Made by a program: the position numbers and the translations under genes. Of a DNA stretch of 45,659 bases, positions 10,113 through 40,747 are shown piece after piece. Source of the DNA: an uncultured Candidatus Saccharibacteria bacterium. GTDB lineage: Bacteria; Patescibacteriota; Minisyncoccia; Minisyncoccales; CAZJYW01. Positions within the stretch are counted from its first letter, which is position 1. Each line of letters starts with the position of its first letter. The stretch lies in the NCBI GenBank assembly GCA_964550395.1, contig CAZJYW010000001.1, forward strand, positions 1-45,659, given 5' to 3'. Below the pieces are notes generated by a model. The model saw only the letters and a program-made list of their open reading frames with translations. It had not been told where the DNA came from and did not search any database.

Positions 10113-11864
10113 ATGAAAGTAGACCCGGGACAACTAAGAGCCTTTCTTTTAGACGCTGGTTTAGTAACCGAGAAACAATTTGACGAGGCTCAAAAAAAAG
10201 CAGAGGAAACCAAACAAAAAGTTGGTGATGTTTTGATTTCTGAAGGCCTAATTTCCCAAGAAGAACTAATTAAACTCGAAGCCTATATTTTGGGAATTCC
10301 TTTTGTAGATTTAGAAAAAGAAATTGTTCCGCCGGAAGCTCTGAAAATTATTCCTGAACCCATTGCTCGTTCTCATAATATCGTTGCTTTCAGAAAAAAG
10401 GGAAACGATTTAGAGGTAGCCATGTTAGATCCTGAAGACTTAAGAACAATTGAGTTTATTAAAAAGAAGGAACCTGGATTAAAAATTTTACCAAGGCTAA
10501 CTACTCCGGAATCAATCAAAAATGTCTTAAGACAATATCAAAAAACTCTTGAGGCTGAGTTTGGAGAAATTATCAAAAAAGAAGCTAAGGGGATTAAAAT
10601 TATCAGTGAAAAGGGAGTAGTAGAAGAAAAAGAGGAACTTAAAAAAATAGCTGGGGAGATTCCAATAATCAGGATTGTTGATACTTTAATGAAGCACGCC
10701 ATTTTAGAGAGAGCTTCCGACATCCATATTGAACCCCTGGAAAAAGAAGTAATAGTTAGATATCGAATTGATGGAATTTTGCATGATACGATGACTTTGC
10801 CCAAAACAGCGGCTTCTGGAATTGTAGCCAGGATAAAGGTTTTATCAAATTTAAAATTAGACGAACATCGACTTCCCCAAGATGGAAGATTTAAAATTGA
10901 AACTGAGGAATATCGATATTCGATTCGAGTTTCAATTTTACCAGTTTTTGATGGAGAAAAAATTGTGATGCGGCTTTTATCTGAGACCTCTAAAGCCCAT
11001 ACCTTAGAAGGCTTAGGTTTTATGGGAGATGCTTTGGAAAGAGTTCAGGACAATTTAAGAAAGCCAGTAGGGATGATTTTAATAACTGGACCTACTGGCT
11101 GCGGGAAAACTACCACTCTTTATGCCATGATGGAAATTTTGAATATTCCTGGAGTAAATATTTCTACAGTAGAAGACCCAGTTGAATACCGAATGCCCAG
11201 AATTAATCAAACTCAGGTTAGACCAAAAATTGGATTAACTTTTGCCTCAGGGCTTAGAGCTTTGGTTAGACAAGACCCAGATATTATTATGGTGGGGGAA
11301 ATTAGAGATAATGAAACAGCTGGTTTAGCTATTAATGCTGCCTTAACCGGTCACTTAGTTTTGTCTACTTTACACACTACTGATGCGGCTGGGGCCATTC
11401 CTAGATTGATTGACATGAAAGCCGAGCCATTTTTAATTTCCTCCACTTTAAATTTAATTTTAGCCCAGCGATTAGTGAGACGGTTTTGCAACGAAAAAGA
11501 AAAATATACTTTAACTGATTCTGAAATAAAAAATTTAAAAAAATATTGCGACCCAGACAGAATTCTGAAGATTCTAAAGGAGGAAAAAATAATAAAACCA
11601 AAAGAAAGTTTCCGAGACATCGGATTCTATCGGCCCAAACCATCTAAAGAATGTCCTGAGGGATATAAGGGCAGAATTGGAATTTACGAATCCTTACCAG
11701 TTACTGAAACCATCAAGGAATTAATTGTTAAAAGAGCAACTTCTTACCAAATCACCGCTCAAGCCCAAAAAGAGGGAATGAGAGCTATGATTGAAGATGG
11801 TTTCGTTAAGGCAGCCCAAGGGATAACCAGTATTGAGGAGGTATTAAGAGTAATCATTGAATAG
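10113..11864 (+). CDS. pilB: Type IV pilus assembly ATPase PilB (GspE family)
   Basis: N-terminal T2SSE_N-like domain, Walker A GPTGCGKTTT, GspE-type Asp and His boxes (MVGEIRD, TGHLVLSTLHT). Confidence 0.92.
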   Translation: MKVDPGQLRAFLLDAGLVTEKQFDEAQKKAEETKQKVGDVLISEGLISQEELIKLEAYILGIPFVDLEKEIVPPEALKIIPEPIARSHNIVAFRKKGNDLEVAMLDPEDLRTIEFIKKKEPGLKILPRLTTPESIKNVLRQYQKTLEAEFGEIIKKEAKGIKIISEKGVVEEKEELKKIAGEIPIIRIVDTLMKHAILERASDIHIEPLEKEVIVRYRIDGILHDTMTLPKTAASGIVARIKVLSNLKLDEHRLPQDGRFKIETEEYRYSIRVSILPVFDGEKIVMRLLSETSKAHTLEGLGFMGDALERVQDNLRKPVGMILITGPTGCGKTTTLYAMMEILNIPGVNISTVEDPVEYRMPRINQTQVRPKIGLTFASGLRALVRQDPDIIMVGEIRDNETAGLAINAALTGHLVLSTLHTTDAAGAIPRLIDMKAEPFLISSTLNLILAQRLVRRFCNEKEKYTLTDSEIKNLKKYCDPDRILKILKEEKIIKPKESFRDIGFYRPKPSKECPEGYKGRIGIYESLPVTETIKELIVKRATSYQITAQAQKEGMRAMIEDGFVKAAQGITSIEEVLRVIIE

Positions 11865-11929
11865 CCGAGCCACCGAAGGTGGCGAAGGCTGGAGATGAAG
11901 GCAAACCCGAAGGGGCAAACTTCATCGAC
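11864..11929 (+). repeat. GC-rich two-hairpin repeat element, copy A (pilB-pilC intergenic)
   Basis: GCCGAGCCACCGAAGGTGGCGAAGGCTGGAGATGAAGG...CTTCATCGAC. Hairpin 1 is GCCACC-GAA-GGTGGC and hairpin 2 has the stem GATGAAG/CTTCATC. It matches 38578-38630 and the reverse complement of 24243-24301. Confidence 0.85.
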
Positions 11930-11933
11930 TAAA

Positions 11934-13151
11934 ATGCCACGCTATTTTTATACTGCCAAATCTCTTAAGGGGGAAAGTAAAACCGGTAGTTTAGTGGCCA
12001 AAAATGAGCCCCAATTAGCAAAAAAACTGCGAGAACAGGGTTTTCTTTTAATTAAAGCTAAAACTGAAAAAGAAACTAAGAAAAGAAAATTAGAAATCTC
12101 CCTTCCCTTTTTTGGAGGGGTTTCTTTAACTGAGAAAATATTTTTCATTAGAAATTTACGGGTAATGCTATCCTCAGGTCTTTCCTTGCCCCGAGCCCTC
12201 CATATTTTAGCTGACCAATCGAAAAGTAAGAAGTTTAAAAGCGCTTTATTAGATATCAGAGAAGAAATTACTAAAGGAAAAAGTTTTTCTGAATCATTAA
12301 GTAAATATCCTAATATTTTCTCTGAACTTTTTTTTAACATGGTAAAAGTAGGGGAGGAAGCCGGAACCTTAGAGGAAGTTTTAAAAATCCTCTCTGAACA
12401 GATGGAGAGAGAGCACGAACTATTATCAGAAATAAAAGGGGCATTGATTTACCCAGCAGTAATTATAGTGGCAATGATTGGGATTGGAATTTTAATGCTG
12501 GTGATGGTTGTTCCCCAATTAGCCGCAACTTTTGAAGAGCTAAATGTTGAACTTCCCGCTACTACCAAATTAGTAATTGGTTTAGGTGCTTTTTTAGTTG
12601 AGAAATTGTACTTAGTTATTTTAATCTTTATTTTTCTTATCTTTATTTTCTTGAGAGTGCAAAAGACAAAAAATGGGAAAGCAGCCATAGATGCTCTTTT
12701 ATTAAAAATCCCCATTATTTCTCCAATTATCAGAAAAACTAATTCGGCCTCTACGGTTAGAACTTTAAGTTCTCTCATTTCTTCGGGGGTGCCCATTGTT
12801 AGGTCTTTGGAAATTATTTCTGGAACTTTAAGTAATATTTATTTTAAGGAAGCGATGAAGGAAGCAGCTAAAAAGGTTAGAAAGGGAGAAAAATTGTCTG
12901 AGGCTCTTAAACCTTATCAAAATATTTATCCTTTGATTGTTATTCAAATGATTGCGGTAGGAGAGGAAACTGGTGAAACTTCCAACATTTTAGCCAAATT
13001 AGCTGCTTTTTTTGAAGAAGAAGTAAGGAGAATTACTAAAAATTTAACGGCAGTCATTGAACCAGTAATAATGTTAATCATTGGAGCAGCAGTTGGTTTT
13101 TTTGCCATCTCCATGGTTCAGCCAATGTATAGTATGCTGGGAGGACTATAA
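11934..13151 (+). CDS. pilC: Type IV pilus platform protein PilC (GspF family)
   Basis: Two GspF repeats and three TM segments. The ORF-track start at 11895 lies inside the repeat element, so the ATG at 11934 (MPRYFYTAKS) is more plausible. Confidence 0.88.
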   Translation: MPRYFYTAKSLKGESKTGSLVAKNEPQLAKKLREQGFLLIKAKTEKETKKRKLEISLPFFGGVSLTEKIFFIRNLRVMLSSGLSLPRALHILADQSKSKKFKSALLDIREEITKGKSFSESLSKYPNIFSELFFNMVKVGEEAGTLEEVLKILSEQMEREHELLSEIKGALIYPAVIIVAMIGIGILMLVMVVPQLAATFEELNVELPATTKLVIGLGAFLVEKLYLVILIFIFLIFIFLRVQKTKNGKAAIDALLLKIPIISPIIRKTNSASTVRTLSSLISSGVPIVRSLEIISGTLSNIYFKEAMKEAAKKVRKGEKLSEALKPYQNIYPLIVIQMIAVGEETGETSNILAKLAAFFEEEVRRITKNLTAVIEPVIMLIIGAAVGFFAISMVQPMYSMLGGL

Positions 13152-17445: not shown

Positions 17446-18533
17446 CTCTAAAACCTGAATCATTCGGTTTGGACATTTCTGACATTTCTTTAAAAATTAT
17501 TAAGCTCAAAAAAAGAGGAAAATTTTTTGATTTGGCTTCGTTTAGAGAAGAAAAAATTAAACCAGGGATAATTAAAAAAGGAGAGATTAAAAAAGAAGAA
17601 GCTTTAGCAAAAATCATTAAAACTGCTCTTGCCAGGGTAAATGGAGAAAAACTTAAAACAAAATATGTAGTAGCTTCTTTGCCGGAAGAAAAAGCTTTTT
17701 TAGAAGTAATCCAGATGCCCAGAATGTCAGAGGAGGATTTAAAATCAGCGGTAATTTATGAAGCTGAAAATTATATTCCTTTGCCAATTGACCAAGTTTA
17801 TTTAGATTCTCAAATTGTCTCCCCGGACTATAACCATTCAGACCAATTCGACGTTTTAATTGCTGCTTTACCTAAAAAAATAGTTAATCCATATTTATCT
17901 GCTTTAAAGAAAGCCGGACTGCAGCCTTTAACTTTTGAAATTGAATCCCAGGCTATCAGCCGAGCTTTAATTAAAGATGAGGGTGCTACTTCTCCTTTTC
18001 TTTTAATTGATTTAGGAGCAACCAGAACCAGTTTCATTATTTTTTCTGGTTATTCTTTAAGGTTTACCTCTTCCATCCCGGTTTCTTCTCAAGGTTTTAC
18101 TGAGATTATTTCCAAAGCCTTGAAAATAAATCTAGCTGAGGCTGAGAAATTAAAAATAGAATACGGCCTTCAACCCGGGGGAAAAAGGGGTAAAGAAATT
18201 TTTGAAGCCTTAATTCCTGCTCTAACTGATTTAATTGAACAAATTAAAAAACATCTTATTTACTATCAGTCCCATGCTTCTCATGAGCACTTGCCTTCGA
18301 ATGGAAAAGGAGTAAAAAAAATTCTTCTGAGCGGAGGAGGAGCAAATTTAAAAAGGCTCCCCGAATTTCTTAGTAGCGCTTTAAAAATTCCAGTTGAAGT
18401 CGGAAATCCCTGGATAAATATTTTAGCTGACCCGTCAAAAGGGGTTTCAGAATTGCCATTGGAAAGGGCATTTGGTTATACTGCTGCCTTAGGCTTAGCA
18501 CTCCGGGGAATCAAAGAAAATAATTATTTGTAG
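17430..18533 (+). CDS. pilM: Type IV pilus assembly protein PilM (actin-like ATPase fold)
   Basis: 367 aa. PilM-like layout: GLDISDISLKII at the N-terminus, LIDLGATRTSF, and LSGGGANLKRLPEFL at the C-terminus. Confidence 0.85.
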   Translation: MLKFLTLKPESFGLDISDISLKIIKLKKRGKFFDLASFREEKIKPGIIKKGEIKKEEALAKIIKTALARVNGEKLKTKYVVASLPEEKAFLEVIQMPRMSEEDLKSAVIYEAENYIPLPIDQVYLDSQIVSPDYNHSDQFDVLIAALPKKIVNPYLSALKKAGLQPLTFEIESQAISRALIKDEGATSPFLLIDLGATRTSFIIFSGYSLRFTSSIPVSSQGFTEIISKALKINLAEAEKLKIEYGLQPGGKRGKEIFEALIPALTDLIEQIKKHLIYYQSHASHEHLPSNGKGVKKILLSGGGANLKRLPEFLSSALKIPVEVGNPWINILADPSKGVSELPLERAFGYTAALGLALRGIKENNYL

Positions 18534-22751: not shown

Positions 22752-22820
22752 TGTTCAATGAATTAAAATTCATTTCACCTCTCGTAAATTTATAATTTAC
22801 TTCGATGTTAAAATTTTTCA
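22751..22820 (+). promoter_or_regulatory. Promoter/operator/start cassette, copy 2 (upstream of the DUF4446 gene)
   Basis: ATGTTCAATGAATTaaAATTCATTTCA...TATAAT...TTCGATGTTAAAATTT. The TATAAT ends 10 nt before the ATG at 22805. It is a paralog of 17374-17445. Confidence 0.55.
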
Positions 22821-23251
22821 AAAAAAGGAAAAAGGAACCGGAAAATTTTAAGGAGATTTTAGCTTATTTTAAGGATTTGGAAAAAAACTTTGAAAAGATT
22901 TCGGAAGAATTAGAAAATTTGAAAAAAGAAAGTCAGTTTTCTATTCAGAAAATCGGCCTAGTTAGATTTAACCCATTTAAAGAAATTGGTGGAGACCAAA
23001 GTTTTTCAGTTGCTTTGTTAGACGACAATGATTCGGGAATTGTTATTACCAGTTTATATACCAGGGAAGGTAACCGAGTTTATGGAAAGCCAATCGAGAG
23101 GGGTTTATCCAAATATTTATTATCAGAGGAAGAGAACCAAGCCCTGGAAATAGCCAAAAAAAATGCCGAAAACAACCAAAAAAAACTTAACCCGCCTGAC
23201 GGCGAGGCAGGTCACCCGACCACCGGTGGTGGTGGTGCTTGGGCACATTGA
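22805..23251 (+). CDS. DUF4446 family protein
   Basis: N-terminal coiled coil, then IGLVRFNPFKEIGGDQSFSVALLDDNDSGIVITSLYTREGNRVYGKPI, which is typical of DUF4446. The last 89 nt overlap infB, so the 3' end is uncertain. Confidence 0.7.
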   Translation: MLKFFKKRKKEPENFKEILAYFKDLEKNFEKISEELENLKKESQFSIQKIGLVRFNPFKEIGGDQSFSVALLDDNDSGIVITSLYTREGNRVYGKPIERGLSKYLLSEEENQALEIAKKNAENNQKKLNPPDGEAGHPTTGGGGAWAH

Positions 23252-24749
23252 CCATGGGAAAACGGCTCTCCTGGACCAGATTAGAAAAACCCACGTTGCA
23301 GAAAAAGAAACTGGCGGCATTACCCAGCATATCGGAGCTTATCAAATTGTTGAAGGTGATAAAAAAATAACTTTTATTGATACTCCTGGTCACGAAGCCT
23401 TTTCGGCAATGCGCTCCCGAGGTAGCAAAATAGCTGACTTGGCTATTTTAGTAGTGGATTCCTCGGAAGGAGTAAAAGCTCAAACTAAAGAGGCGATTTC
23501 TCATATTAAAAAATCAGGAATTCCAATAATTGTTGCCTTAAACAAAATTGATAAACCCGAAGCTAATCCAGAAAAAGCTAAAAGGGAACTGGCTCAGGAA
23601 GATGTTGTGGTTGAATCGCTGGACGGGAAAACTCCTTCAATTGAAATTTCGGCTCTCACTGGCCAGGGAATTCCTGAGCTCTTAGAATTGATATTATTAG
23701 TGGCCGAAATGGAAAATTTGAAAGTAGAGCTTATTAAGAAAGCGGAAGGAGTAGTAATCGAATCTTATTTAGACCGTTTAAGAGGGCCAACGGCTACTTT
23801 GCTCATTACCGAGGGAGTTTTAAAACAAGGTGATATTTTGGGTACTTTTTCTACCTTTGGGAAAATAAAAAAATTAGAAAACTTTCAAGGTTGCTCTATT
23901 GAAAAAGCCTTGCCTTCAGATCCGGCTGTTGTCATCGGGTTTGAAGATGTTCCTAAAGTTGGGGAAAATTTTAAAGTTTTTCCGGATTTGGAAACGGCTA
24001 AAAACTATCTTAAAATCCCAGCAAAAAAAGCTCCTGAAGTTTTATCCCCCACCGAGGTTCCTCTGGCAGAGGGCATAGACCAAAAGGTTTTAAATCTAAT
24101 TTTAAAAACCGACGTTTTTGGCTCAATTGAAGCCATTGAGGAAGTTTTAAATAATCTTCCCCAAGAGAGAGTGGTTTTAAGAATTTTAAAATCGGAAGCA
24201 GGGGAGATAAATGAGGGGGACATTAAGTTAATTAAAGGGGGTCGGGAGTCGATGAGGGCGAGGTCTTCATCTCCACCTTCGCTACCTTCGGTGGCTCGGT
24301 CATTAATTTTTGGCTTCCGGGTAAAAATCAATCCAACAGCCAAAATACTAGCCGAAAGAGAGAAAATTAAAATAATGACCTTTGACGTAATTTATGATTT
24401 AGTGGAGGGAGTTCGCAAATTTATGGAAAAAGAGCTTCGACCAGAGAAGGTTCGAACCGATTTGGGGAAAGTTAAAACTTCAGCAATTTTTCTTATAGAA
24501 AAAAATCGCCAGATTGTTGGAGGAAAAGTGATTGAAGGAGAAGTTAAAAAAGGAGCTTCGATTGAAATTTTTCGGGAAGAAAACCTTATTGGTAAAGGGA
24601 AGTTGGTCAATCTCCAGAAAAACAAAAAAGATGTCGATAGAGTTCCGAAAGGGGAGGAGTGCGGACTCCTTTACGAAGGTGATACCAGAATTGAAGAGGG
24701 GGATACATTAGCGATTTATCAAGAAGAAAGAAGGAAGAGTGAGCTGTAA
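23163..24749 (+). CDS. infB: Translation initiation factor IF-2 (short N-terminus) carrying an in-frame repeat insertion
   Basis: G-domain motifs GHIDHGKT, DTPGH and NKID. The C-terminal beta-barrel domains are present. An extra 20 aa (RESMRARSSSPPSLPSVARS) is encoded at 24243-24301. Confidence 0.92.
   Translation: MPKTTKKNLTRLTARQVTRPPVVVVLGHIDHGKTALLDQIRKTHVAEKETGGITQHIGAYQIVEGDKKITFIDTPGHEAFSAMRSRGSKIADLAILVVDSSEGVKAQTKEAISHIKKSGIPIIVALNKIDKPEANPEKAKRELAQEDVVVESLDGKTPSIEISALTGQGIPELLELILLVAEMENLKVELIKKAEGVVIESYLDRLRGPTATLLITEGVLKQGDILGTFSTFGKIKKLENFQGCSIEKALPSDPAVVIGFEDVPKVGENFKVFPDLETAKNYLKIPAKKAPEVLSPTEVPLAEGIDQKVLNLILKTDVFGSIEAIEEVLNNLPQERVVLRILKSEAGEINEGDIKLIKGGRESMRARSSSPPSLPSVARSLIFGFRVKINPTAKILAEREKIKIMTFDVIYDLVEGVRKFMEKELRPEKVRTDLGKVKTSAIFLIEKNRQIVGGKVIEGEVKKGASIEIFREENLIGKGKLVNLQKNKKDVDRVPKGEECGLLYEGDTRIEEGDTLAIYQEERRKSEL
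24243..24301 (-). repeat. GC-rich two-hairpin repeat element, copy C, in frame inside infB (inverted orientation)
   Basis: GTCGATGAGGGCGAGGTCTTCATCTCCACCTTCGCTACCTTCGGTGGCTCGGTC is the reverse complement of the element at 38578-38630, with a few substitutions. Confidence 0.85.
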
Positions 24750-24751
24750 AA

Positions 24752-25093
24752 ATGTCTAAGCGTATTCAACGGGTCAATCAATTAATAAAAAAGGAGATAT
24801 CCCAAATTCTTTTGCGAGAAGTAGAATTTAATTCGGGGGTTTTAATAACCGTGACTAGAGTAGAGAGTGCGGTTGACCTAAGTCAGGCTAAAATTTATAT
24901 AAGCTGTCTGCCCGAAGAGAAAACTTCAAAAGTTTTTCAAATCTTGAATCGACAGATTTATGAATTACAAAAAAAATTGAATCATCGTTTGCGAATGAGG
25001 CCAATCCCCCGAATTAAATTTATCGAAGAGAAAGAAACTAAAGAGGCGGGCCGGGTCGAAGAAATTTTAGAAAAGCTGAAATTAAAGAAATAA
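24752..25093 (+). CDS. rbfA: Ribosome-binding factor A
   Basis: 113 aa. N-terminal RIQRVNQLIKKEISQIL is typical of RbfA. The gene directly follows infB, which is the conserved order. Confidence 0.88.
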   Translation: MSKRIQRVNQLIKKEISQILLREVEFNSGVLITVTRVESAVDLSQAKIYISCLPEEKTSKVFQILNRQIYELQKKLNHRLRMRPIPRIKFIEEKETKEAGRVEEILEKLKLKK

Positions 25094-25095
25094 AT

Positions 25096-25136
25096 TTCTT
25101 CTCCACCTTCGCCCCACTGTGGCGGGGATCGGTAAT
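25096..25136 (-). repeat. Partial or variant copy (D) of the two-hairpin element, just after the rbfA stop
   Basis: TCTCCACCTTCGCC is shared with copy C, followed by a different GC-rich segment (CCACTGTGGCGGGGATCGG). Confidence 0.55.
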
Positions 25137-25206
25137 TGAAGAGATTTTAGAGAAAATTAAAAAAGATGGTTGGAAAACTGGTGAAAAATTGCTAAGATAA
25201 TTTGAC

Positions 25207-25961: not shown

Positions 25962-25993
25962 ATCGAGCACATAACGCTTTATGTGCTCCGATT
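25962..25993. repeat. CGAGCACAT palindromic hairpin, copy 1
   Basis: TCGAGCACAT-AACGCTTT-ATGTGCTCCGA, related to 37004-37050 and 37162-37193. Confidence 0.7.
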
Positions 25994-32615: not shown

Positions 32616-32851
32616 ATTTTTTAAATAAAATTCAAAATTTACCAGAAGGAAAAAGAAAAACCATTTTTTGGTTAATAATAATCATGGTTGGGATTTTCTT
32701 ATTAATCTGGTGGGCTAAAAATTTAGAAATGAGAATAAAAAGTTTCAAATCAGAAAAAATTAAAGAAGAGCTCCAATTACCAAGACTGGAAGAAGAATTA
32801 AAAGGTCTGCCAAAGTTTGAAGTGCCGGAAGCTTCAGAGGAAGAGCTTTAA
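32612..32851 (+). CDS. Small membrane protein (79 aa, one TM helix)
   Basis: The ORF overlaps the upstream stop by 4 nt and has one hydrophobic helix ([17 protein letters not shown]). No family recognised. Confidence 0.5.
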
Positions 32852-32855
32852 AAAT

Positions 32856-35372
32856 ATGGCTAAAGACCCCAATCCAAAAAACAGGGAAATTGGTTACGTC
32901 AAACCGCGGGAAATCACCGAAGAGATGAGGGATTCTTACATTGATTATGCCATGTCGGTGATTATCTCCCGGGCTTTACCCGATGTCAGAGATGGATTGA
33001 AACCGGTTCACCGTCGGATTTTGTATGCGATGCATGAAATGGGATTAAAACACGATGCCAAGTTTAGAAAATCAGCAACGGTAGTAGGAGAGACATTGGG
33101 AAAATATCATCCTCACGGCGATCAATCTGTTTATGATGCCGCGATAAGAATGGCACAAGATTTTTCATTGAGATACCTTTTGATACAGGGTCAAGGAAAC
33201 GTAGGGTCAGTCGATGATCCAAGCGAGTTTGCGGCTATGCGATATACAGAAATGAGAATGTCGAAAATTGGTGAAGAAATGTTAAAAGACATTGAAAAAA
33301 ATACAGTTGATTTTGTTGACAATTATGATGGAACCAGGAAAGAACCCACTGTTTTGCCCTCTCCCTTTCCCCAACTTTTATTAAATGGCTCTCTGGGAAT
33401 TGCTGTTGGCATGGCCACCAATATTCCTCCTCATAATCTTTCGGAAACTTGCGATGCCGCCATTTATTTAATTGACCACCCCAGAGCCGCCACAGAAGAT
33501 TTACTAAAATTTATTAAAGGCCCTGACTTCCCAACTGGCGGAGAAATTTTTAATCAAAAAGAAATAATTCAAGCCTATTCTCAAGGAAAGGGGCCAATTA
33601 TCACCCGGGGTAAGGCCGAAATCACCGAGGACAAAAAAGGCAGACTCCAAATTATGATTACGGAAATTCCCTATCAAGTTCAAAAGTCTTCTTTAGTTGA
33701 GCAATTGGCTAACTTAGTTCAAGAAAAAAAGATTGAAGGAATAAAAGACATTAGAGATGAATCAGATAAAGAGGGGATGAGAATTGTTATTGATTTACAG
33801 CGGGAGGCCATAGCCCAGAAAATTTTAAACCGGCTTTACAAATTTACTGACCTCCAAAAAACTTTCCATTTGAACATGTTGGCCATAGTGGAAGGAATCC
33901 AGCCTCGGGTTTTAAACTTAACCGAACTCTTAAATTATTATCTTTTACATCGAAAAGAAGTAATATATCTGAGAACAAAGTATGACTTGGAGAAAGCCAA
34001 AGAAAGAGCTCATATTTTAGAAGGATTAGATAAATGCCTGGCGAATATCGATGCCGTAATTAGAACAATTAAACAATCGGATAACCGGGAGGAAGCTCAA
34101 AAAAACTTAATAAAAAGGTTTAAATTAACTCAAATTCAGGCTAATGCCGTTTTAGAAACAAAACTTTCAGCCTTAGCCAAATTAGAGAGGAAAAAGATTG
34201 AAGATGAATTAAAAGCGCTCCGTATTAAAATTAAAGAATTAACCGCGATTTTAAAGAGCCCTCAAAAAATAAAAGAAGTGGTTAAGAAAGAGTTGAAAGA
34301 AATAAAAGAAAATTTTGGCGATGAAAGAAGAACCAAAGTCCGTCTCCAAAAAGTGGGCGAAATTGCTGAAGAAGATTTGATTCCCCAAGAGGAAACTATT
34401 ATTACTTTAACTCAAGGAGGTTATATCAAAAGATTAAACCCGGCTACTTATAAAATTCAAAAAAGAGGAGGAAAAGGAATTTTAGGAATGAAAACGGTCG
34501 GAGAAGATATTGTCGAGCACTTTCTAACCGCTAACACTCACGACTCTCTGCTTCTTTTTAGTGATTCGGGAAAAGTTTTTAGAACTCCAGTTTACGAAAT
34601 TCCCGAAGGAACTAGAGTAGCCAAGGGAAGAGGTCTTTTAAATTTTCTAGAAATTTCTTCTCAAGAGAAAATCTTATCTCTGATGTCCTTAGGGAAAGCC
34701 GACCAGGGTTTTATCAAATATTTAGTAATTGCCACCAAAGATGGTATAATCAAAAAAACAGCCCTTGAAGAATTTGAAAATGTGAGAAGGTCAGGTTTAA
34801 TTGCCATCACTCTTAAAAAGGGGGATGCCTTAAGGAAAGTTTCAAGAACCACCGGTGAGGATGAAATTATTTTAGTGACTAAAAAAGGTCAGTCTGTCCG
34901 CTTCAAGGAAAAAGAAATAAGGCCGATGGGAAGAGCGGCAGCCGGAATTAGAGGAATCAAGCTTAAAAAAGCTGATGAAGTGGTCGGGATGGACGTTGTT
35001 GACGTTAAACGTCAACAGGGGAAAAAACAATATCTATTAGTTGTAACGGAAAATGGGTTTGGGAAGAGGACGGATTTAAAAGAATATAGACTTCAGGGTA
35101 GGGGAGGTTCGGGGATTAAAACTGTTCAAGTTGCCCCCAAAACCGGAGATTTAGTAGCTTCAAAAGTTTTAACTACCCGAGCATTAGCGAAGGGTGAAAA
35201 TGAAGCCAAGGCTTCATTGCCTACCGAAGAAGATTTAATTGTTATTTCTCAAAAAGGTCAGGTGATAAGGGCGGCAATTTCTAGTATCTCCAAACTTTCC
35301 CGGGTTACCCAAGGAGTAAGAATAATGAAATTAGGAGAGGGAGACCAGGTAGCTTCAGCCACCTGTATCTAA
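32856..35372 (+). CDS. gyrA: DNA gyrase subunit A
   Basis: [12 protein letters not shown]...[31 protein letters not shown], active-site context AAMRYTE, and a C-terminal beta-pinwheel with repeated G.GKR/RGG.G motifs. The start is set at the ATG at 32856, not the upstream in-frame extension. Confidence 0.93.
34998..35016. repeat. 19-bp palindrome inside the gyrA C-terminal domain
   Basis: GTTGACGTT-A-AACGTCAAC, encoding VDVKRQQ. Confidence 0.65.
35176..35222 (+). repeat. Degenerate partial copy (E) of the two-hairpin element, in frame in gyrA
   Basis: CCGAGCATTAGCGAAGGGTGAAAATGAAGCCAAGGCTTCATTGCC aligns with CCGAGC...GCGAAGGCTGGAGATGAAG...CTTCATCGAC of copy A. It lacks hairpin 1 and keeps the hairpin ATGAAGCC-AA-GGCTTCAT. 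Confidence 0.5.
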
Positions 35373-37003: not shown

Positions 37004-37050
37004 AAATCAACCCGAGCACATAAATTGGGTTATGTGCTCGGTTGATTTTT
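37004..37050. terminator. CGAGCACAT palindromic hairpin, copy 2 (terminator-like, followed by a T-run)
   Basis: AATCAACCCGAGCACATAA-ATTGGG-TTATGTGCTCGGTTGATT followed by TTTT. Confidence 0.7.
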
Positions 37051-37222: not shown

Positions 37223-37828
37223 TTATCCTCTTACATTTATTTTTCTCTTTCTTTCTCTTAAAATTTTCGGTATCCTGATAGTTAAAATTCCTTCTTTCAT
37301 TGTGGCTTCCACCCGCCCAGGGTCAACTTCCACTGGCAAAATTACCTCTCGGGAAAATGGCCCCCAATAACATTCTTGAGTAAAATAATTCTCTTCCTGC
37401 TCCGATAATCTTTCCCTATTTCCTCGAATAGTTAGTACATCACTTTCCATTGAAATATCTAAATTTTCTGGCTTTACTCCAGCAATTGCCGATTGAATAA
37501 TCAGCTCATTTTCGGTTTGATAAACATCAATTGCCAGTTGTCCCTCTGGTTCGAACCACTTTTCTTTATCCTTCACAGCTTTAGTCAAGGAAGGTTCTTC
37601 TTTCTTTACTTCGGGTTCTTCAATTTTTTCAAGTTCGGGTTCAATTGGTTCTGCTTTAATTTCCAATTTTCTTACTCTCGGCACTCTCGCTTTTTTCGCC
37701 TGTCCCGTAGGAAGCCGAAGGCTTTCCTTCGGGGGGTTTTTTTCTACCTTTTCTATCCCTTCTTCAACTGGTCCTTCAATTCCCATTCCCTTTTTTAATT
37801 TTTCGAAAAAAGAAGATTCCTTTTCCAT
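37223..37828 (-). CDS. Hsp20/alpha-crystallin family small heat-shock protein with Lys/Glu-rich N-terminal extension
   Basis: The C-terminal alpha-crystallin domain reads LAIDVYQTENELIIQSAIAGVKPENLDISMESDVLTIRG...FSREVILPVEVDPGRVEATMKEGILTIRIPK. Confidence 0.85.
   Translation of the reverse strand: MEKESSFFEKLKKGMGIEGPVEEGIEKVEKNPPKESLRLPTGQAKKARVPRVRKLEIKAEPIEPELEKIEEPEVKKEEPSLTKAVKDKEKWFEPEGQLAIDVYQTENELIIQSAIAGVKPENLDISMESDVLTIRGNRERLSEQEENYFTQECYWGPFSREVILPVEVDPGRVEATMKEGILTIRIPKILRERKRKINVRG
37715..37732. repeat. GC-rich hairpin inside the hsp20 N-terminal extension
   Basis: CCGAAGG-CTTT-CCTTCGG, a perfect 7-bp stem inside the GC-rich block 37697-37736. Confidence 0.6.
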
Positions 37829-37829
37829 A

Positions 37830-38561
37830 TTAATTAATTTTACAAATACTTTTCATTTTTTTCAACCTTTTGAATCCCAAGGAAACAAAGAGGGCCAAAC
37901 TAATCAAGATAATAATAGGAATTAAGAATCTCAGGCTTCCCTCAATTTCCATAATAGAAAAATTATAAAGTCCATGCAAGAGGCAGGCTATTCCCAAGCC
38001 GACAGCTAAGAGCGATATCCGGTTTTTTGTTTCGGAAAAAGATAGAGCCAGAAAGAGACCTACGGTTCCTGAACATAAGGCATGTAAAAAGGTTGCTCCT
38101 AAAAACCTGGCAACCGTAATCGAAAAAGCTTCTCCGAGTAAAAAGGTTGGACCGAGAGTGATTAAAATCAAAATGTTTTCTAAAGCGGCAAAACCCAGAG
38201 CGGCAATTATCATATAAAGCAAGGCATCGGTTGGTTCATCAAATTCGGCACTCTTCAGTACTTTTTCTTTCACCACTAGATATTTTAGAACCTCTTCAAC
38301 CAGAGCTACTCCGATCAAAGCATTAAAAATAATAATTAAAAAGGGAGAGAGGAGATTAGATAATGGTGGGTGCAAGGTGCTCTCAAAAATTCCCTTTTCT
38401 AAGAAAACCGCTGGGATGGCAGCCAACATTCCATAAAAGAAAATTTTTATTACCTGGGAATTAGGTTCAGGATGAACATCTTTTCTCAAATAAAACAAAA
38501 GCCAGATTAGGCTGGGCAGAACTCCAAAAAAAATATAAAGAGGATAACTCATTTGGGCCAT
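37830..38561 (-). CDS. prsW: PrsW-family intramembrane metalloprotease
   Basis: Multi-TM protein with the PrsW motifs VEEVLKY, GFAALEN and HALCSG. Its stop is 1 nt from the hsp20 start. Confidence 0.8.
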   Translation of the reverse strand: MAQMSYPLYIFFGVLPSLIWLLFYLRKDVHPEPNSQVIKIFFYGMLAAIPAVFLEKGIFESTLHPPLSNLLSPFLIIIFNALIGVALVEEVLKYLVVKEKVLKSAEFDEPTDALLYMIIAALGFAALENILILITLGPTFLLGEAFSITVARFLGATFLHALCSGTVGLFLALSFSETKNRISLLAVGLGIACLLHGLYNFSIMEIEGSLRFLIPIIILISLALFVSLGFKRLKKMKSICKIN

Positions 38562-38577
38562 TTTTCAATCATTAAAC

Positions 38578-38630
38578 GCCGAGCCACCGAAGGTGGCGAA
38601 GGTGGAGATGAGGGACTCGCCCTCATCGAC
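38578..38630 (+). repeat. GC-rich two-hairpin repeat element, copy B (valS-prsW intergenic)
   Basis: GCCGAGCCACCGAAGGTGGCGAAGGTGGAGATGAGGGACTCGCCCTCATCGAC. Its last base is part of the valS stop codon. Confidence 0.85.
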
Positions 38631-40747
38631 TATTTGGGCCATTCCTCGATCATCAGGCATTTCTTTTTATTCTCTATTGGTAATTTTTGATAGATTTCTT
38701 CAGTGATGAAAGGCATGAATGGATGCAAAAGTTTTTGAGAAGTTAGTAATACATATAATAGAACTTTCTCTGTATTTTCTTTTTCAGTTTTGGATTTTGG
38801 ATTTTGGATTTTGGATTTCGATGATTCAATATAAACATCGCAGAAGTCATGCCAGAAAAAATTATAGAGGATATGGGCGGCCTGGCCGAACTGAAAACCT
38901 CCCAAATTTTTATTAACTGATTTTATTGTTTTATCTAAGGCTCGAAGAATTCTTTTATCAGCCAATGTTAACTTTGAGCCAGAGCACAAAATCTTTGTGC
39001 TCGGCCGAGCACTCAACCCTATTTGAGTACTCTGGTTTTGCATCATTACAAATCGGCTAGCATTCCAAATCTTGTTACAGAACTTCTTTCCCATAACTAT
39101 ATTGTCTTCAGTAAATCTAATATCCTGTCCTCCCATAATTTGCCAGGCTATCCCAAATCGGGTAGCATCGGCTCCATATTTTTCAATGAGATTTATCGGG
39201 TCTACTCCGGTACCAAGAGATTTTGACATTCTTTCCCCCTCTTTGGTTAAAACAGTAGCATGGACATAGACCTCTCGAAATGGCTCTTTTTTCATAAATT
39301 CCATCCCGGAAAATATCATCCTGGCTACCCAGAGATTTATAATTCCTCGGTCAGTACTCAGAACATTGGTTGGATAAAACCTTTTTAAGTCTTTGGTTTT
39401 TTGGGGCCAACCAAGGGTGGCAAATGGCCAGAGAGCAGAGGAAAACCAGGTATCCAGAACATCGTTCACGCCTTTTAAGGGTATTTTATGACCCCACCAG
39501 ATTTGTCTGGAAATGCACCAATCTCTGATGTTCTTTAACCAGTCAAAGTAGATTTTTTCCCACCTTTTGGGAATAAATTTTATCCGGCCTAATTTAACAG
39601 CCTTGATAGATTTTTTAGCCAGTTTATCCATTTTTAAAAACCACTGCTTAGAGGGAATCAATTCAACCGTTGTGTTGCAGCGGTAACATTTAGGAACTTG
39701 ATGATTGTACTCCTCAACTTTTTCTAAAAGTCCTAATTTTTCCAAATCTTCAACCACTTTTTGTCTAACCTCCAAAACCTTTAAGCCCCGGTATGGCAGA
39801 GGAGAATTTTTAGTCATTCTGCCGTTTTCATCAATTACTTTAACTGAACCTAATTTATGCCGGAGACCAATTTCGTAGTCGGTCAAATCGTGGGCTGGAG
39901 TAATTTTAACAGCGCCAGTGCCAAATTTTGGGTCAACTAATCCATCAGCCACGATAGGAATTTTTTTATTGACTAAAGGCAAAGTAACTTTTTTACCGAT
40001 TAATTTTTTATATCTTTTGTCGCCGGGATTAACGGCAACCGCCGTGTCTCCCAGCATGGTTTCGGGTCTGGTGGTGGCAACAGTTATAAAAGGAGGATAT
40101 TTTATATACCAAAGATGACCCTTTTCTTCTTTATATTCTAATTCTAGGTCTGATAAAGAGGTGGCGCACCTTGAACACCAATTGATTACTCTTTCTCCTT
40201 GATAAATCCAGCCTTTTTTGTAGTAATGTAAAAAGGCAGCTTCCACTGCTCGGATATAATCTTTGTCCATGGTAAAACGGGCTCTCGACCAATCAAACGA
40301 AGCGCCTAATTTTTTAAATTGATTTAAAATTATATTTTCGTATTGATCCATCCAGTCCCACATTGTTTTAATAAACTTTTCTTTACCTAAATCAAACCTT
40401 GTTTTACCTTCTTTTTTTAATTTTTTCTCTACTTTGTTTTGGGCAGAGATGCCGGCATGGTCGGTGCCGGGCAGCCATAAAGTTTTAAATCCCTGAAGTT
40501 TTTTCCAGCGGATTAAAATATCCTGAACAGTGACATTTAAAGCATGGCCCATATGAAGCTCACCAGTAATATTTGGGGGAGGGATAACAATACAATAAGG
40601 CTTTTTATGACGTTTAGGAAGCTTATCAGGATTAAAAAAACCAGACTTTCGCCAGAGATTGTAAGTTTTATTTTCCACCTTTTTCGGATTATAAGCCTTC
40701 GGAAGTTTCATATATCTTATTCTATCAACTGACTTGCCTTTTTTCAA
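38630..40747 (-). CDS. valS: Valine--tRNA ligase (short form lacking the long C-terminal coiled coil)
   Basis: HIGH-type motif PPNITGELHMGHAL, KMSKS-type RMSKSLG, CP1 editing domain and anticodon-binding helices. The likely start is the internal ATG at 40711 (MKLPKAYNP). Confidence 0.92.
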   Translation of the reverse strand: MKKGKSVDRIRYMKLPKAYNPKKVENKTYNLWRKSGFFNPDKLPKRHKKPYCIVIPPPNITGELHMGHALNVTVQDILIRWKKLQGFKTLWLPGTDHAGISAQNKVEKKLKKEGKTRFDLGKEKFIKTMWDWMDQYENIILNQFKKLGASFDWSRARFTMDKDYIRAVEAAFLHYYKKGWIYQGERVINWCSRCATSLSDLELEYKEEKGHLWYIKYPPFITVATTRPETMLGDTAVAVNPGDKRYKKLIGKKVTLPLVNKKIPIVADGLVDPKFGTGAVKITPAHDLTDYEIGLRHKLGSVKVIDENGRMTKNSPLPYRGLKVLEVRQKVVEDLEKLGLLEKVEEYNHQVPKCYRCNTTVELIPSKQWFLKMDKLAKKSIKAVKLGRIKFIPKRWEKIYFDWLKNIRDWCISRQIWWGHKIPLKGVNDVLDTWFSSALWPFATLGWPQKTKDLKRFYPTNVLSTDRGIINLWVARMIFSGMEFMKKEPFREVYVHATVLTKEGERMSKSLGTGVDPINLIEKYGADATRFGIAWQIMGGQDIRFTEDNIVMGKKFCNKIWNASRFVMMQNQSTQIGLSARPSTKILCSGSKLTLADKRILRALDKTIKSVNKNLGGFQFGQAAHILYNFFWHDFCDVYIESSKSKIQNPKSKTEKENTEKVLLYVLLTSQKLLHPFMPFITEEIYQKLPIENKKKCLMIEEWPK
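38787..38817. repeat. Heptanucleotide tandem repeat (GGATTTT, about 4 units) inside valS
   Basis: GTTTTGGATTTTGGATTTTGGATTTTGGATTT, encoding SKSKIQNPKSK on the minus strand. Confidence 0.8.
38978..39035. repeat. Double GAGCAC-type hairpin block, in frame inside valS
   Basis: GAGCACAAA-ATC-TTTGTGCTC (38982-39002), then CGAGCACTCAA-CCCTAT-TTGAGTACTCTG. The block encodes the QSTQIGLSARPSTKILCSGSK loop. Confidence 0.65.

What the first reader, a model, noticed from the sequence alone, without database searches (positions are those of the whole stretch)
24243..24301. A repeat element that also occurs between genes sits in frame inside essential infB
The IF-2 ORF reads ...GDIKLIKGG-[RESMRARSSSPPSLPSVARS]-LIFGFRVKI.... 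The bracketed 20 aa are encoded by about 60 nt, GTCGATGAGGGCGAGGTCTTCATCTCCACCTTCGCTACCTTCGGTGGCTCGGTC. That sequence is the reverse complement of the intergenic elements at 38578-38630 and 11864-11929, apart from a few substitutions. The block is GC-rich in an AT-rich gene, its length is a multiple of 3, and it carries no stop. It interrupts the segment where IF-2 proteins normally run from the ESD(V/I).LA strand straight into the IIGFNV strand. So a mobile palindromic element has apparently been tolerated as a surface loop in a core translation factor. This is the behaviour known for Rickettsia palindromic elements, and I am not aware of it being described for this kind of genome.
Basis: partly seen in the sequence, partly recalled or inferred. 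Interest (0 to 1): 0.82.

Follow-up and report, generated by a model that had tools for sequence, protein, structure and literature searches.

The report
Mobile hairpin element inside infB
A 54-base copy of a small, GC-rich, two-hairpin mobile repeat sits in frame inside the essential translation factor gene infB (and another inside gyrA) of an ultra-small CPR bacterium, showing that Rickettsia-style "selfish DNA inside proteins" also occurs in this lineage.

Summary
The infB insert is 54 nt (18 aa, window 24246-24299), not about 60 nt. It is 86-90% identical to two intergenic copies. Only the three closest infB lineages (at least 91% identity) carry it; orthologues at 65-89% identity have a clean empty site. 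A covariance model shows that the insert belongs to a family of 45-70 nt elements. Each has conserved ends and a conserved linker (ACCGAGC ... GCGAAGGTGGAGATGA ... TCATCGACT) and two hairpins supported by compensatory changes. The window holds five copies: in infB, in gyrA, at the rbfA 3' end, and after valS and pilB. Relatives ("Candidatus Nealsonbacteria") carry about one copy per 7-9 kb. Seven clean filled/empty polymorphisms inside genes (infB, gyrA, pilM, gpsA, hsp20, an MBL-fold hydrolase, and a nested copy in valS) all add a multiple of 3 nt. Copies insert just 3' of an AT-rich motif (WTYAAW) and have no terminal inverted repeats and no fixed target duplication. In IF-2 the peptide is predicted to be a disordered loop in domain III, and it evolves almost neutrally. 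Stem substitutions keep G.U pairing on the transcribed strand. The mobilising enzyme is unknown. I file it as a new member of a known kind (RPE-like).

The parts
23163..24749 (+). infB (translation initiation factor IF-2), longest ORF 528 aa; the true start is probably a few dozen codons downstream, as in the 482-489 aa orthologues
   Evidence: ORF list. 8000 IF-2 homologues, best E=7e-295, with Pfam GTP_EFTU and IF-2 domains. PDB IF2 3j4j matches at E=1e-101. pN/pS is about 0.2 outside the insert, so the gene is under purifying selection.
24246..24299 (-). Element copy C: a 54-nt in-frame insertion in infB (18 aa, ESMRARSSSPPSLPSVAR). The element's reference strand is the minus strand, so the copy is antisense to infB.
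   Evidence: Covariance-model hit 24246-24301 (-), 72 bits, E=3e-16. Clean 54-nt gap in L040, L041 and L042. Absent from all IF-2 homologues below 91% identity. GC 0.61 against 0.40 for the rest of the gene.
38577..38632 (+). Element copy A: intergenic, directly abutting the valS stop codon (valS is on the minus strand) and upstream of the prsW-like gene. It has the best-preserved hairpins.
   Evidence: 82 bits, E=9e-19. RNA fold -31 kcal/mol, z=-5.0. Syntenic copies in five species carry a compensatory change in hairpin 2.
38552..38572 (.). Left member of a 21-nt imperfect direct repeat flanking copy A (TTTGGGCCATTTTTCAATCAT). It covers the prsW-like start region.
   Evidence: 18 of 21 nt identical to 38633-38653. 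The repeat is conserved in all five species that have copy A.
38633..38653 (.). Right member of the direct repeat flanking copy A (TTTGGGCCATTCCTCGATCAT). On the minus strand it encodes the valS C-terminus, IEEWPK*.
11863..11931 (+). Element copy B: intergenic, between the stop codon of the pilB/GspE-like ATPase gene and the pilC-like gene. It is an extended variant with an extra mini-hairpin in the loop of hairpin 2.
   Evidence: 68 bits, E=2e-15. Fold -32.9 kcal/mol, z=-6.1. Syntenic copies in L018, L023-L026, L029 and L036; in L029 hairpin 1 has changed by compensatory substitutions. Flanking genes identified by Pfam.
35175..35223 (+). Element copy D: short variant, a net +45 nt in-frame insertion in the GyrA C-terminal beta-pinwheel domain (residues about 787-802, [16 protein letters not shown]).
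   Evidence: 43 bits, E=5e-10 with model R2. Empty site in L003, L020 and L032. Pure gap against M. tuberculosis GyrA CTD 4g3n, between two beta-strands.
32817..35372 (+). gyrA (DNA gyrase subunit A, 851 aa), host of copy D
   Evidence: Pfam DNA_topoisoIV E=2e-161 and DNA_gyraseA_C E=5e-65.
25053..25134 (-). Element copy E at the rbfA 3' end: a 78-nt insertion relative to L040. It carries a diverged duplicate of the rbfA C-terminal coding segment, which now supplies the last 13 codons and the stop codon.
   Evidence: 42.5 bits, E=8e-10. Empty site in L040. The duplicated segment 25056-25081 matches 25136-25161 at 20 of 26 nt (counted; also flagged as D3/D6). The same arrangement is repeated 2x and 3x in tandem in L045 and L046.
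24752..25093 (+). rbfA (ribosome-binding factor A), whose 3' end overlaps copy E
   Evidence: Pfam RBFA E=3e-22.
17828..17854 (.). Empty site in pilM. The close relative L030 (91% identical here) and the more distant L024 and L026 carry a 45-nt in-frame copy at exactly this position.
   Evidence: pilM identified by Pfam.
37613..37639 (.). Empty site in the N-terminal region of the Hsp20-family gene. L032 carries a 63-nt in-frame copy here.
   Evidence: Pfam HSP20.

Best explanation
The block in infB is one copy of a small (45-70 nt), GC-rich, non-autonomous mobile element family found in 'Candidatus Nealsonbacteria'-like CPR bacteria. The unit has a conserved 5' end (N-ACCGAGC), a variable hairpin 1, a conserved purine-rich linker (GCGAAGG-TGGAGATGA), hairpin 2, and a conserved 3' end (TCATCGAC-T).

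One copy inserted, antisense, into the infB of the common ancestor of the window organism and its closest sister lineages. It landed in a helix-to-strand loop of IF-2 domain III that already varies in length among CPR bacteria. The insertion added 54 nt in an open frame, so it is read through as an 18-residue, probably disordered, surface loop. It is tolerated rather than useful: the peptide evolves almost neutrally while the rest of IF-2 stays under purifying selection.

The same process has repeatedly placed copies in frame in other genes. Selection removes insertions that shift the frame or bring in a stop codon. Four of the element's six frames are open, which makes survival inside genes fairly likely.

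Shown: family membership, lineage-specific insertion, the in-frame rule, the hairpins, and the 5' target preference. Inferred: translation of the insert, its surface location, and selfishness.

How it moves is not established. The asymmetric target motif, the lack of terminal inverted repeats, the lack of a fixed target duplication, the hairpins near both ends and a nested insertion into a hairpin loop fit best with mobilisation in trans by a single-strand (HUH/Y1, IS200/IS605- or RAYT-like) enzyme encoded elsewhere. I give that about 0.35. A copy-choice (template-switch) or RNA-templated mechanism would better explain the long, variable target duplications at gene 3' ends. I give that about 0.3.
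For: Repeat significance.

Lineage-specific insertion with clean empty sites at protein and DNA level.

Hairpins and covariation: 97% of cells are paired, 4 pairs show double compensatory changes, and 0 of 500 shuffles reach the observed score. Folds have z of -5 to -6.

Spread across sites: 29 independent sites in related genomes. Contigs chosen only through infB hold 12 copies in 88 kb.

Filled/empty polymorphisms: infB +54, gyrA +45, pilM +45, gpsA +51, hsp20 +63, MBL-fold hydrolase +69 and a nested copy +57. All seven are multiples of 3, which has probability (1/3)^7 = 5e-4 if length did not matter. One clean intergenic insertion adds 67 nt.

Nested copy inside the hairpin-1 loop of another copy in L034 valS.

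Target motif: WTYAAW lies directly 5' of the element at 12 of 29 sites against a 4% background (p=4e-10), and T is at position -5 in 24 of 29. There is no signal on the 3' side. The motif is already present at most empty sites.

Insert location: a pure gap against solved IF2, in a low-confidence loop of the model. The same loop holds unrelated 7- and 15-aa inserts in other CPR lineages.

Evolution of the insert: pN/pS is 0.64-0.85 in the insert and 0.19-0.24 in the rest of infB.

GyrA copy: also a pure gap in a beta-turn against 4g3n.
Against: No transposase, RAYT or reverse transcriptase is encoded in the window, so mobility rests on comparative evidence only.

The intergenic copies after valS and pilB are kept at the same sites in at least five species with compensatory changes. 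In addition, 12 of 13 independent stem substitutions keep G.U pairing on the transcribed strand whichever way the element is inserted. Both suggest that some copies are constrained for an RNA-level role, so they may not be purely selfish.

The 5' junction codons in infB also differ from the empty sites (GGG AGA against GGT CGG). Gene-end copies carry target duplications of about 21 and about 26-35 nt. Neither fits a simple cut-and-paste model.

Translation of the insert has not been observed. The pN/pS figures for the insert rest on only 5-6 substitutions.
Confidence: 0.85

Rival explanations
1. The copies are host-functional structured motifs, for example REP-like mRNA-stabilising or processing hairpins, or a binding site for a protein. 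They are maintained because they work at the RNA level. The copies inside genes are collateral or are exapted in the same way. This rival partly overlaps the best explanation, since a selfish origin could be followed by exaptation.
For: Copies A and B sit directly after stop codons within operons. They are conserved at those sites in at least five species whose flanks are only about 70-78% identical, and their stems show compensatory changes. Non-Watson-Crick stem pairs are G.U on the transcribed strand in 12 of 13 independent events, whichever way the element is oriented. Fisher p=0.007. The baseline on the infB sense strand is 45 C>T to 52 G>A; a binomial test gives p=7e-4 with the raw baseline and about 0.01, by my hand calculation, after per-base normalisation. 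RNase Y is encoded in the window.
Against: The elements occur in both orientations relative to transcription, so a sequence-specific RNA function would have to be symmetric. There is no match to any Rfam family and no terminator-like T-run. Presence or absence at identical sites is patchy among close relatives, with no sign of compensation. Nested and tandem insertions look parasitic. The hairpins in the infB copy are decaying.
Confidence: 0.2
2. The insert in infB is not translated. It is either removed from the mRNA by a structure-dependent cleavage and ligation, or skipped by ribosome hopping between the two CGG codons that flank it, as in phage T4 gene 60 or the mitochondrial 'byp' elements.
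For: The 54 nt are flanked by identical CGG codons (GGT CGG [..54..CGG] TCA), so take-off and landing codons would match. The insert forms two stable hairpins on the mRNA strand, at -22 kcal/mol. Stems appear to be kept paired at the RNA level. CGG is a GC-rich codon that replaces the AGA found at empty sites.
Against: All seven clean intragenic insertions add a multiple of 3 nt and are open in the host frame. That constraint would be unnecessary if the segment were removed or bypassed. No stop codon follows the putative take-off codon. The pilM copy has no matching flanking codons (TCA|CCC...CCA|GAC). No indel or stop codon has accumulated in the infB insert across three lineages that differ by 5-6%. 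The two ends of the insert do not pair with each other in the predicted fold. There is no Rfam intron or ribozyme match.
Confidence: 0.05
3. The family does not spread by a dedicated transposase. It spreads by templated repair or replication template-switching (copy-choice) primed by microhomology, or by recombination between co-occurring lineages. This is a rival for the mechanism only.
For: 4-5 nt of microhomology links an element terminus and the flank at four intragenic sites: TCGG (infB), CTACC (gyrA), GACCA (pilM) and CTTCG (gpsA). Long, variable duplications of the target occur at gene 3' ends, and [coding copy + element] units repeat in tandem at rbfA. The junction in infB was remodelled. 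The distribution at identical sites across lineages is patchy. No transposase is seen in the window.
Against: There is a strong one-sided sequence preference at the 5' junction (p=4e-10). Both element termini are sharply conserved across subfamilies whose hairpins are otherwise divergent. Both features are more typical of enzyme-mediated, site-specific insertion.
Confidence: 0.3
4. The resemblance is due to chance, to a chimeric metagenome assembly, or to an ancestral IF-2 segment from which the intergenic copies derive.
For: None was found. Metagenome-assembled sequence does carry a general risk of chimeras.
Against: No matches are expected in shuffles, and model E-values are around 1e-15. 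The same insertion occurs in four independent assemblies with their own substitutions. It is absent from all IF-2 homologues below 91% identity. The family also occurs at many unrelated sites.
Confidence: 0.01

Closest known systems
Rickettsia palindromic elements (RPE; Ogata et al. 2000, as summarised in the MITE review PMC10969869)
   Same: Both are short repeated elements with hairpin potential, found in a small, AT-rich genome. Both lie between genes and in frame inside unrelated housekeeping genes, where they add a peptide that is thought to sit on the protein surface. No transposase is associated with either.
   Different: RPEs are about 100-150 bp, form ten families confined to Rickettsia, and each encodes a conserved peptide in one frame (PMC10969869). 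The elements here are 45-70 nt and belong to a different phylum. They are built from two different hairpins plus conserved linkers, and they are found translated in all four of their open frames and in both orientations. I could not compare them with RPE sequences. They share a behaviour, not demonstrated ancestry.
REP / REPIN elements mobilised by RAYT (Y1) transposases (PMC3116915), and the IS200/IS605 family
   Same: Both are small, GC-rich hairpin repeats with no terminal inverted repeats and no fixed target duplication. Both insert into or next to one another. In IS200/IS605, hairpins near both ends are recognised on single-stranded DNA, and insertion occurs 3' of a short specific sequence that abuts only the left end. 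That matches the one-sided WTYAAW preference seen here.
   Different: REPs are by definition extragenic, and REPINs are inverted doublets of one REP that form a single long hairpin. Here the two hairpins differ from each other, lie side by side, and are often inside genes. No RAYT or TnpA gene was found in the window. Long target duplications at gene ends are not expected for this mechanism.
MITEs (for example Correia, RUP, ERIC; review PMC10969869)
   Same: Both are non-autonomous, short and multi-copy, and both occasionally form in-frame fusions with host ORFs.
   Different: MITEs are defined by terminal inverted repeats and a fixed target-site duplication made by a DDE transposase. Neither feature is present here.
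Small dispersed repeats of heterocyst-forming cyanobacteria (Elhai et al. 2008, Genome Research; recalled from memory, phrase found in PMC3116915's text)
   Same: Both are very small hairpin-forming mobile repeats that insert into genes while preserving the reading frame. Both also insert into each other.
   Different: The cyanobacterial repeats are only about 21-27 nt, belong to a different phylum, and are unrelated in sequence as far as I can tell. This comparison rests on memory and was not tested here.
GC clusters and 'byp' elements of yeast mitochondria, and the T4 gene 60 bypass (from memory)
   Same: All are GC-rich, hairpin-forming mobile inserts of a few tens of nucleotides inside genes of an AT-rich genome. 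The infB copy is flanked by identical codons, as bypass elements are.
   Different: Bypass elements interrupt the frame and are skipped by the ribosome. Here every intragenic copy preserves the frame, no stop codon follows the take-off codon, and other copies lack matching flanking codons.

Membership tests
Rickettsia palindromic elements (RPE) | Repeated hairpin-forming element found both between genes and in frame within unrelated protein-coding genes | tested here: met
   There are five copies in the window, two fully within genes. Seven clean in-frame intragenic insertions were found across relatives.
Rickettsia palindromic elements (RPE) | Length of about 100-150 bp, and sequence membership in one of the ten RPE families of Rickettsia | tested here: not met
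   Units here are 45-70 nt and the host is a CPR bacterium. The RPE lengths come from PMC10969869. I made no direct sequence comparison with RPE consensus sequences.
MITE | Terminal inverted repeats | tested here: not met
   The ends are ACCGAGC... and ...TCATCGACT, which are not reverse complements of each other. All internal pairing lies within two separate hairpins.
MITE | Target-site duplication of fixed length | tested here: not met
   Flank and terminus share only 0-5 nt at intragenic sites, but the duplication is about 21 nt at the valS 3' end and about 26-35 nt at the rbfA 3' end.
REP / REPIN | Extragenic location | tested here: not met
   Roughly half of the copies lie inside ORFs that were confirmed by homology: infB, gyrA, valS, pilM, gpsA and hsp20.
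REP / REPIN | Inverted doublet of one REP sequence forming a single long hairpin | tested here: not met
   The element has two different hairpins in tandem, and each has its own covariation.
REP / REPIN | A cognate single-copy RAYT gene flanked by the repeats | not testable with these tools
   There is none among the 37 ORFs of the window. The rest of the genome, including the complete relative CP179888.1, could not be read.
IS200/IS605-derived non-autonomous element (PATE-like) | Hairpins near both ends and no terminal inverted repeats | tested here: met
   Hairpin 1 lies 5-7 nt from the 5' end and hairpin 2 lies 4-5 nt from the 3' end.
IS200/IS605-derived non-autonomous element (PATE-like) | Insertion 3' of a short specific target that abuts only the left end, without target duplication | tested here: inconclusive
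   A one-sided WTYAAW motif lies at the 5' junction (p=4e-10), and the 3' side shows no signal. Several empty sites are seamless. However, long duplications occur at two gene-end sites, and the junction in infB was remodelled.
IS200/IS605-derived non-autonomous element (PATE-like) | A Y1 (HUH) TnpA encoded in the same genome, whose full-length element shares these ends | not testable with these tools
   None is in the window. No whole-genome access was available.
Programmed translational bypass element (T4 gene 60 / mitochondrial byp) | Matching take-off and landing codons, with a stop or otherwise unreadable codon after take-off, and an insert that is not constrained to preserve the frame | tested here: not met
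   infB does have CGG...CGG. However, the next codon is GAG, the pilM copy has no matching codons, and 7 of 7 intragenic inserts are multiples of 3 and open.
Self-splicing intron / intein / known structured RNA | Match to a curated RNA family, or an intein-sized protein-splicing domain | tested here: not met
   Rfam matches only tRNAs at gathering threshold, and only noise at E up to 10 around copies A and B. The insert encodes only 18 aa.

The most novel reading that the evidence does not exclude
The family may be an RNA-constrained mobile element. Its hairpins are maintained on whichever strand is transcribed. It inserts next to an AT-rich motif and produces target duplications of variable length (0-35 nt) and tandem [gene end + element] arrays. 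These properties resemble target-primed, RNA-templated (SINE-like) or copy-choice insertion more than any known bacterial DNA transposon. If so, it would be a new class of bacterial mobile element, one that colonises essential genes of ultra-small genomes and is perhaps recognised or processed as RNA.
Probability: 0.1. Interest if true: 0.85.

Novelty: new member of a known kind. Interest (0 to 1): 0.62.

Why it matters
CPR/Patescibacteria have some of the smallest and most streamlined genomes known, and they are usually described as poor in repeats. This family makes up an estimated 0.5-1% of the sampled sequence, and it repeatedly survives inside essential, highly conserved genes (infB, gyrA, valS). 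That has four consequences.

1. 'Selfish DNA inside proteins', known mainly from Rickettsia, has arisen independently in a very different reduced-genome lineage.
2. The elements are a ready source of lineage-specific loops in core proteins. These loops can mislead alignments, phylogenies and gene calling in metagenome bins. One example is the spurious start codon inside copy B, which extends pilC by 13 codons.
3. The clean presence/absence polymorphisms could serve as markers for strain and lineage history.
4. The one-sided target motif, the variable target duplications and the strand-specific wobble pattern give concrete leads for finding the mobilising activity in organisms that cannot be cultured.

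Tried and rejected
1. Exact 20-mer scan of 185,579 species genomes. Of the 21 hits, 18 were chance matches in high-GC genomes. Only the three Nealsonbacteria hits were real, so exact matching greatly under-counts the family.

2. Scan of viral contigs for linker plus hairpin 2. There were no hits, so there is no evidence for a phage vector.

3. Searching the 5.8-billion-protein database with the element's four open-frame peptides joined together. No candidates were returned, because the query was too short and low in complexity for the word index. A protein-level census was therefore not possible.

4. Rfam at permissive thresholds around copies A and B. Only noise was returned.

5. Terminator scan. 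Copy A is not a canonical intrinsic terminator. The terminator-like hits belong to a different palindrome family.

6. Pfam scan of all 37 window ORFs for a transposase, RAYT or reverse transcriptase. None was found.

7. Hypothesis that the 3' flank starts a second unit (rolling-circle read-through: CCGA after the infB copy, ACC after the gyrA copy). This does not hold across the other copies, so I dropped it.

8. Strand-biased mutation (C>T on the coding strand) as the explanation for the wobble asymmetry. Polarised substitutions in infB give 45 C>T against 52 G>A, so it does not account for 12 of 13 events.

9. DNA-uptake-sequence-like accumulation by point mutation. I rejected this because copies appear and disappear as whole 45-70 nt blocks.
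Full report
**Observation.** The window encodes an IF-2 ORF at 23163..24749 (+). A 24-mer from the block (up to 3 mismatches) matches three places in the window: 11865-11888 (+), 24276-24299 (-) and 38579-38602 (+). None are expected in 100 dinucleotide-preserving shuffles. The repeat finder reports a 66-nt inverted match between 24247-24312 and 38566-38631 at 86%, and a 29-nt match to 11860-11888 at 90%. The insert has 61% GC, against 40% for the rest of infB.

**Lineage-specific insertion.** A search with the IF-2 protein returned CPR ('Candidatus Nealsonbacteria') IF-2 sequences.
- In an alignment of the 120 best hits, only the query and the two closest homologues (P0001 at 93%, P0002 at 91%) carry the block. 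Homologues at 65-89% identity read ...KL(V/A)KGG-R(A/S)LILGFRV... without interruption.
- At the DNA level, the empty sites in L040, L041 and L042 read AAAGGGG(G/A)GAGA(G/T)CTTT(G/A)ATT. The filled sites in the window (identical to L033), L030 and L037/L039 read AAAGG(G/A)GGTCGG[54 nt]TCATT(A/G)ATT.
- The insertion is therefore 54 nt, or 18 aa (24246-24299), not about 60 nt. The two codons at the 5' junction were also altered (GGG AGA to GGT CGG).
- Four independent assemblies carry the insertion with their own substitutions, so it is not an assembly artefact.

**The element.** Aligned in one orientation, the three copies share CCGAGCCACCGAAGGTGGCGAAGG(N)TGGAGATGA-[stem-loop]-TCATCGACT.
- The intergenic copies fold into two adjacent hairpins with z-scores of -5.0 and -6.1. 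The infB copy is partly decayed.
- Scans of public genomes and metagenomes found copies at the same positions after valS and after pilB in several Nealsonbacteria species. They also found two new sites, in L022 and L031, where hairpin 1 had changed by compensatory substitutions.
- On eleven distinct copies, 97% of cells are paired, four pairs show double compensatory changes, and 0 of 500 shuffles reach the observed covariation score.
- Covariance models R1 and R2 find exactly five strong copies in the window:

| Copy | Window position | Location |
|---|---|---|
| A | 38577-38632 (+) | after the valS stop codon |
| B | 11863-11931 (+) | after the pilB stop codon |
| C | 24246-24301 (-) | in infB |
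| D | 35175-35223 (+) | in gyrA |
| E | 25053-25134 (-) | at the rbfA 3' end |

- Related loci hold many more, for example about eight in the 14.4 kb of L032.
- Contigs chosen only because they carry infB, at 67-83% IF-2 identity, hold 12 copies with E below 1e-4 in 88 kb. The density is therefore about one copy per 7-9 kb and is not an artefact of how the loci were chosen.
- Subfamilies differ in hairpin 1 (from absent to 8 bp), in an extra mini-hairpin inside hairpin 2, and in GC content. All keep the ACCGAGC / GCGAAGG-TGGAGA / TC(A/T)TCGAC skeleton.

**Evidence for mobility.** Alignments of orthologous sites give clean presence/absence polymorphisms:

| Host gene | Filled in | Empty in | Net insertion |
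|---|---|---|---|
| infB | window, L030, L037/L039 | L040, L041, L042 | +54 nt |
| gyrA | window | L003, L020, L032 | +45 nt |
| pilM | L030, L024, L026 | window (17828-17854) | +45 nt |
| gpsA | L030 | L037, L040 | +51 nt |
| hsp20 | L032 | window (37613-37639) | +63 nt |
| MBL-fold hydrolase | L032 | L003 | +69 nt |
| valS (nested copy) | L034 | — | +57 nt |

- The nested copy lies inside the hairpin-1 loop of another copy within valS.
- All seven intragenic insertions add a multiple of three nucleotides, which has probability (1/3)^7 = 5e-4 if length were irrelevant. A clean intergenic insertion adds 67 nt.
- The canonical element is open in four of its six frames. The other two are closed by the TGA in the conserved GATGA. 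Copies are found translated in all four open frames and in both orientations.
- Host genes were identified by Pfam.

**Target and junctions.** Over 29 independent sites, the six bases just 5' of the element follow W-T-Y-A-A-W.
- T is at position -5 in 24 of 29 sites. The motif is present at 12 of 29 sites against a 4% background (p=4e-10). The 3' flank shows no signal.
- The motif is already present at most empty sites, so it is a target preference and not part of the element.
- There are no terminal inverted repeats.
- Target duplications are not of fixed length. At intragenic sites only 0-5 nt are shared between a terminus and the flank (TCGG, CTACC, GACCA, CTTCG). Copy A, in contrast, is flanked by a 21-nt imperfect direct repeat (18 of 21) that duplicates the old valS-end/prsW-start overlap. 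Copy E carries a duplicate of about 26-35 nt of the rbfA C-terminal coding segment, and this duplicate now supplies the stop codon.
- In L045 and L046 the unit [rbfA C-terminal copy + element] is repeated two and three times in tandem.
- The distribution at identical sites is patchy. The pilM copy is in L030 and the distant L024 but not in the window. The gpsA copy is in L030 and the distant L045 but not in L037, L040, L043 or L044. This implies precise loss, repeated insertion at the same site, or recombination between lineages.

**Effect on IF-2.**
- Against T. thermophilus IF2 (3j4j), the 18 residues are a pure gap between the helix ending ...LLAQTANAA and the strand ILAFGV. By my recollection of the domain boundaries, and consistent with the Pfam IF-2 domain, this lies in domain III (C1).
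- An AlphaFold2 model built from 60 homologues (mean pLDDT 74.7) gives pLDDT below 50 for residues 363-378, between helix 351-367 and strand 380-385. The neighbouring core is modelled at 70-80.
- The same loop carries unrelated 7-aa and 15-aa inserts in other CPR lineages, so it tolerates length changes.
- Among the three filled lineages, pN/pS is 0.64-0.85 in the insert and 0.19-0.24 in the rest of the gene (only 5-6 substitutions in the insert). The gene is functional and the peptide is close to neutral.
- The GyrA insert is likewise a pure gap in a turn between two beta-strands of the C-terminal pinwheel, against 4g3n.

**An unexpected pattern.** In copies oriented sense to the host gene, the non-Watson-Crick stem pairs are G.T on the element strand (9 against 0 A.C). 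In antisense copies they are A.C on the element strand, which is G.U on the mRNA (5 against 1).
- Counting independent events, 12 of 13 keep pairing on the transcribed strand (Fisher p=0.007).
- Polarised substitutions in infB show 45 C>T and 52 G>A on the sense strand, so mutation bias does not explain the pattern. A binomial test gives p=7e-4 with the raw baseline, and about 0.01, by my own calculation, after per-base normalisation.
- This suggests a constraint on RNA structure, or on the strand that is single-stranded during replication. I cannot separate the two here.

**Mechanism.**
- Shown: repeat family, hairpins, insertion polymorphisms, the in-frame rule and the one-sided target motif.
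- Inferred: read-through translation, from the in-frame rule and the absence of indels or stop codons over 5-6% divergence. Also surface location, and selfish spread with purifying selection removing disruptive insertions.
- The mobilising activity is unknown. No transposase, RAYT or reverse transcriptase is encoded in the window, and the viral contigs hold no copies.
- The end hairpins, the one-sided target and the seamless empty sites resemble IS200/IS605 and RAYT-type single-strand transposition (for the REPIN/RAYT model). The variable long duplications and the tandem arrays do not.

**Comparison with known systems and novelty.** The behaviour matches Rickettsia palindromic elements, as summarised in PMC10969869. 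The elements here are two to three times shorter, have a different architecture, and occur in a different phylum. They fail the defining tests for MITEs (no terminal inverted repeats, no fixed target duplication), for REP/REPIN (intragenic, not an inverted doublet) and for bypass elements (the frame is always preserved). Literature searches found no report of such elements in CPR/Patescibacteria, but this search is limited to open-access text. I classify the finding as a new member of a known kind, with interest 0.62. The open mechanistic features (variable duplications, strand-specific wobble) are the most novel part.

Noticed in passing
window 37012-37041, 37164-37191, 25963-25990: A second palindromic repeat family (CCGAGCACATAA-N4-6-TTATGTGCTCGG) flanks tRNA-Leu(tag) on both sides, with a degenerate copy near the tRNA cluster at 26 kb. 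It is terminator-like, with a T-run following, and it shares the CCGAGC motif with the two-hairpin element. Six half-site matches were found against 0.15 expected.
   Followed up: partly
window 27568-27643 (-): ARAGORN calls a tRNA-Ile gene with anticodon TAT (UAU). This is an uncommon way of reading AUA in bacteria, where lysidine-modified CAU is usual. The window also holds 20 tRNA genes in 45.7 kb.
   Followed up: no
window 34-6900 (+): A giant 2288-aa ORF with Ig-like, PKD and fn3 domains and internal direct repeats of about 1.86 kb at 88-93% identity. It is probably a surface protein.
   Followed up: no
window 41139-41158; L032 12100-12167; L034 (same site): One site in the 530-aa glycosyltransferase-like gene is an insertion hot spot. 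L032 has an element copy there, the window has an unrelated GC-rich palindrome (CCTGCCTGTCGGCAGGCAGG), and L034 has a (TAACAAT)n tandem repeat.
   Followed up: partly
window 32458-32485 and 38792-38816: At two sites where relatives carry element copies (the MBL-fold hydrolase and the interior of valS), the window has other short inserts. One is TACCAAAATTGAATCCGCCAGCTGGCGG, a possible decayed copy that starts with TACC and contains a hairpin. The other is an (AAATCC)n-like short tandem repeat.
   Followed up: no
window 11895-11933: An ATG inside copy B is in frame with pilC, so the longest ORF (11895..13151) begins inside the element and adds 13 spurious codons (MKANPKGQTSSTK). In L029 the same frame is closed by a stop codon, so this is an annotation trap and not coding sequence.
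   Followed up: partly
L043 11990-12739, L044 11898-12551, L045 12169-12858 and 14859-18152: Relatives carry a LAGLIDADG-type ORF just downstream of rbfA, where the window has tRNA-Cys and tRNA-Leu. In L045 an intein-containing FtsH of 1097 aa is present. Other selfish elements are therefore active in the same lineage.
   Followed up: no
window 22805-23251 / 23163: The longest infB ORF overlaps the upstream DUF4446 gene by 89 nt. Orthologues are 482-489 aa and overlap it by about 26 nt, so the real infB start is probably downstream of 23163.
   Followed up: no
IF-2 alignment, loop at query residues 360-381: Other CPR IF-2 lineages carry unrelated inserts at exactly this loop, such as HPALGYP-type 7-mers and QVSNKSPRHPTGQ-type 15-mers. 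I did not examine whether these are remnants of older element insertions.
   Followed up: no
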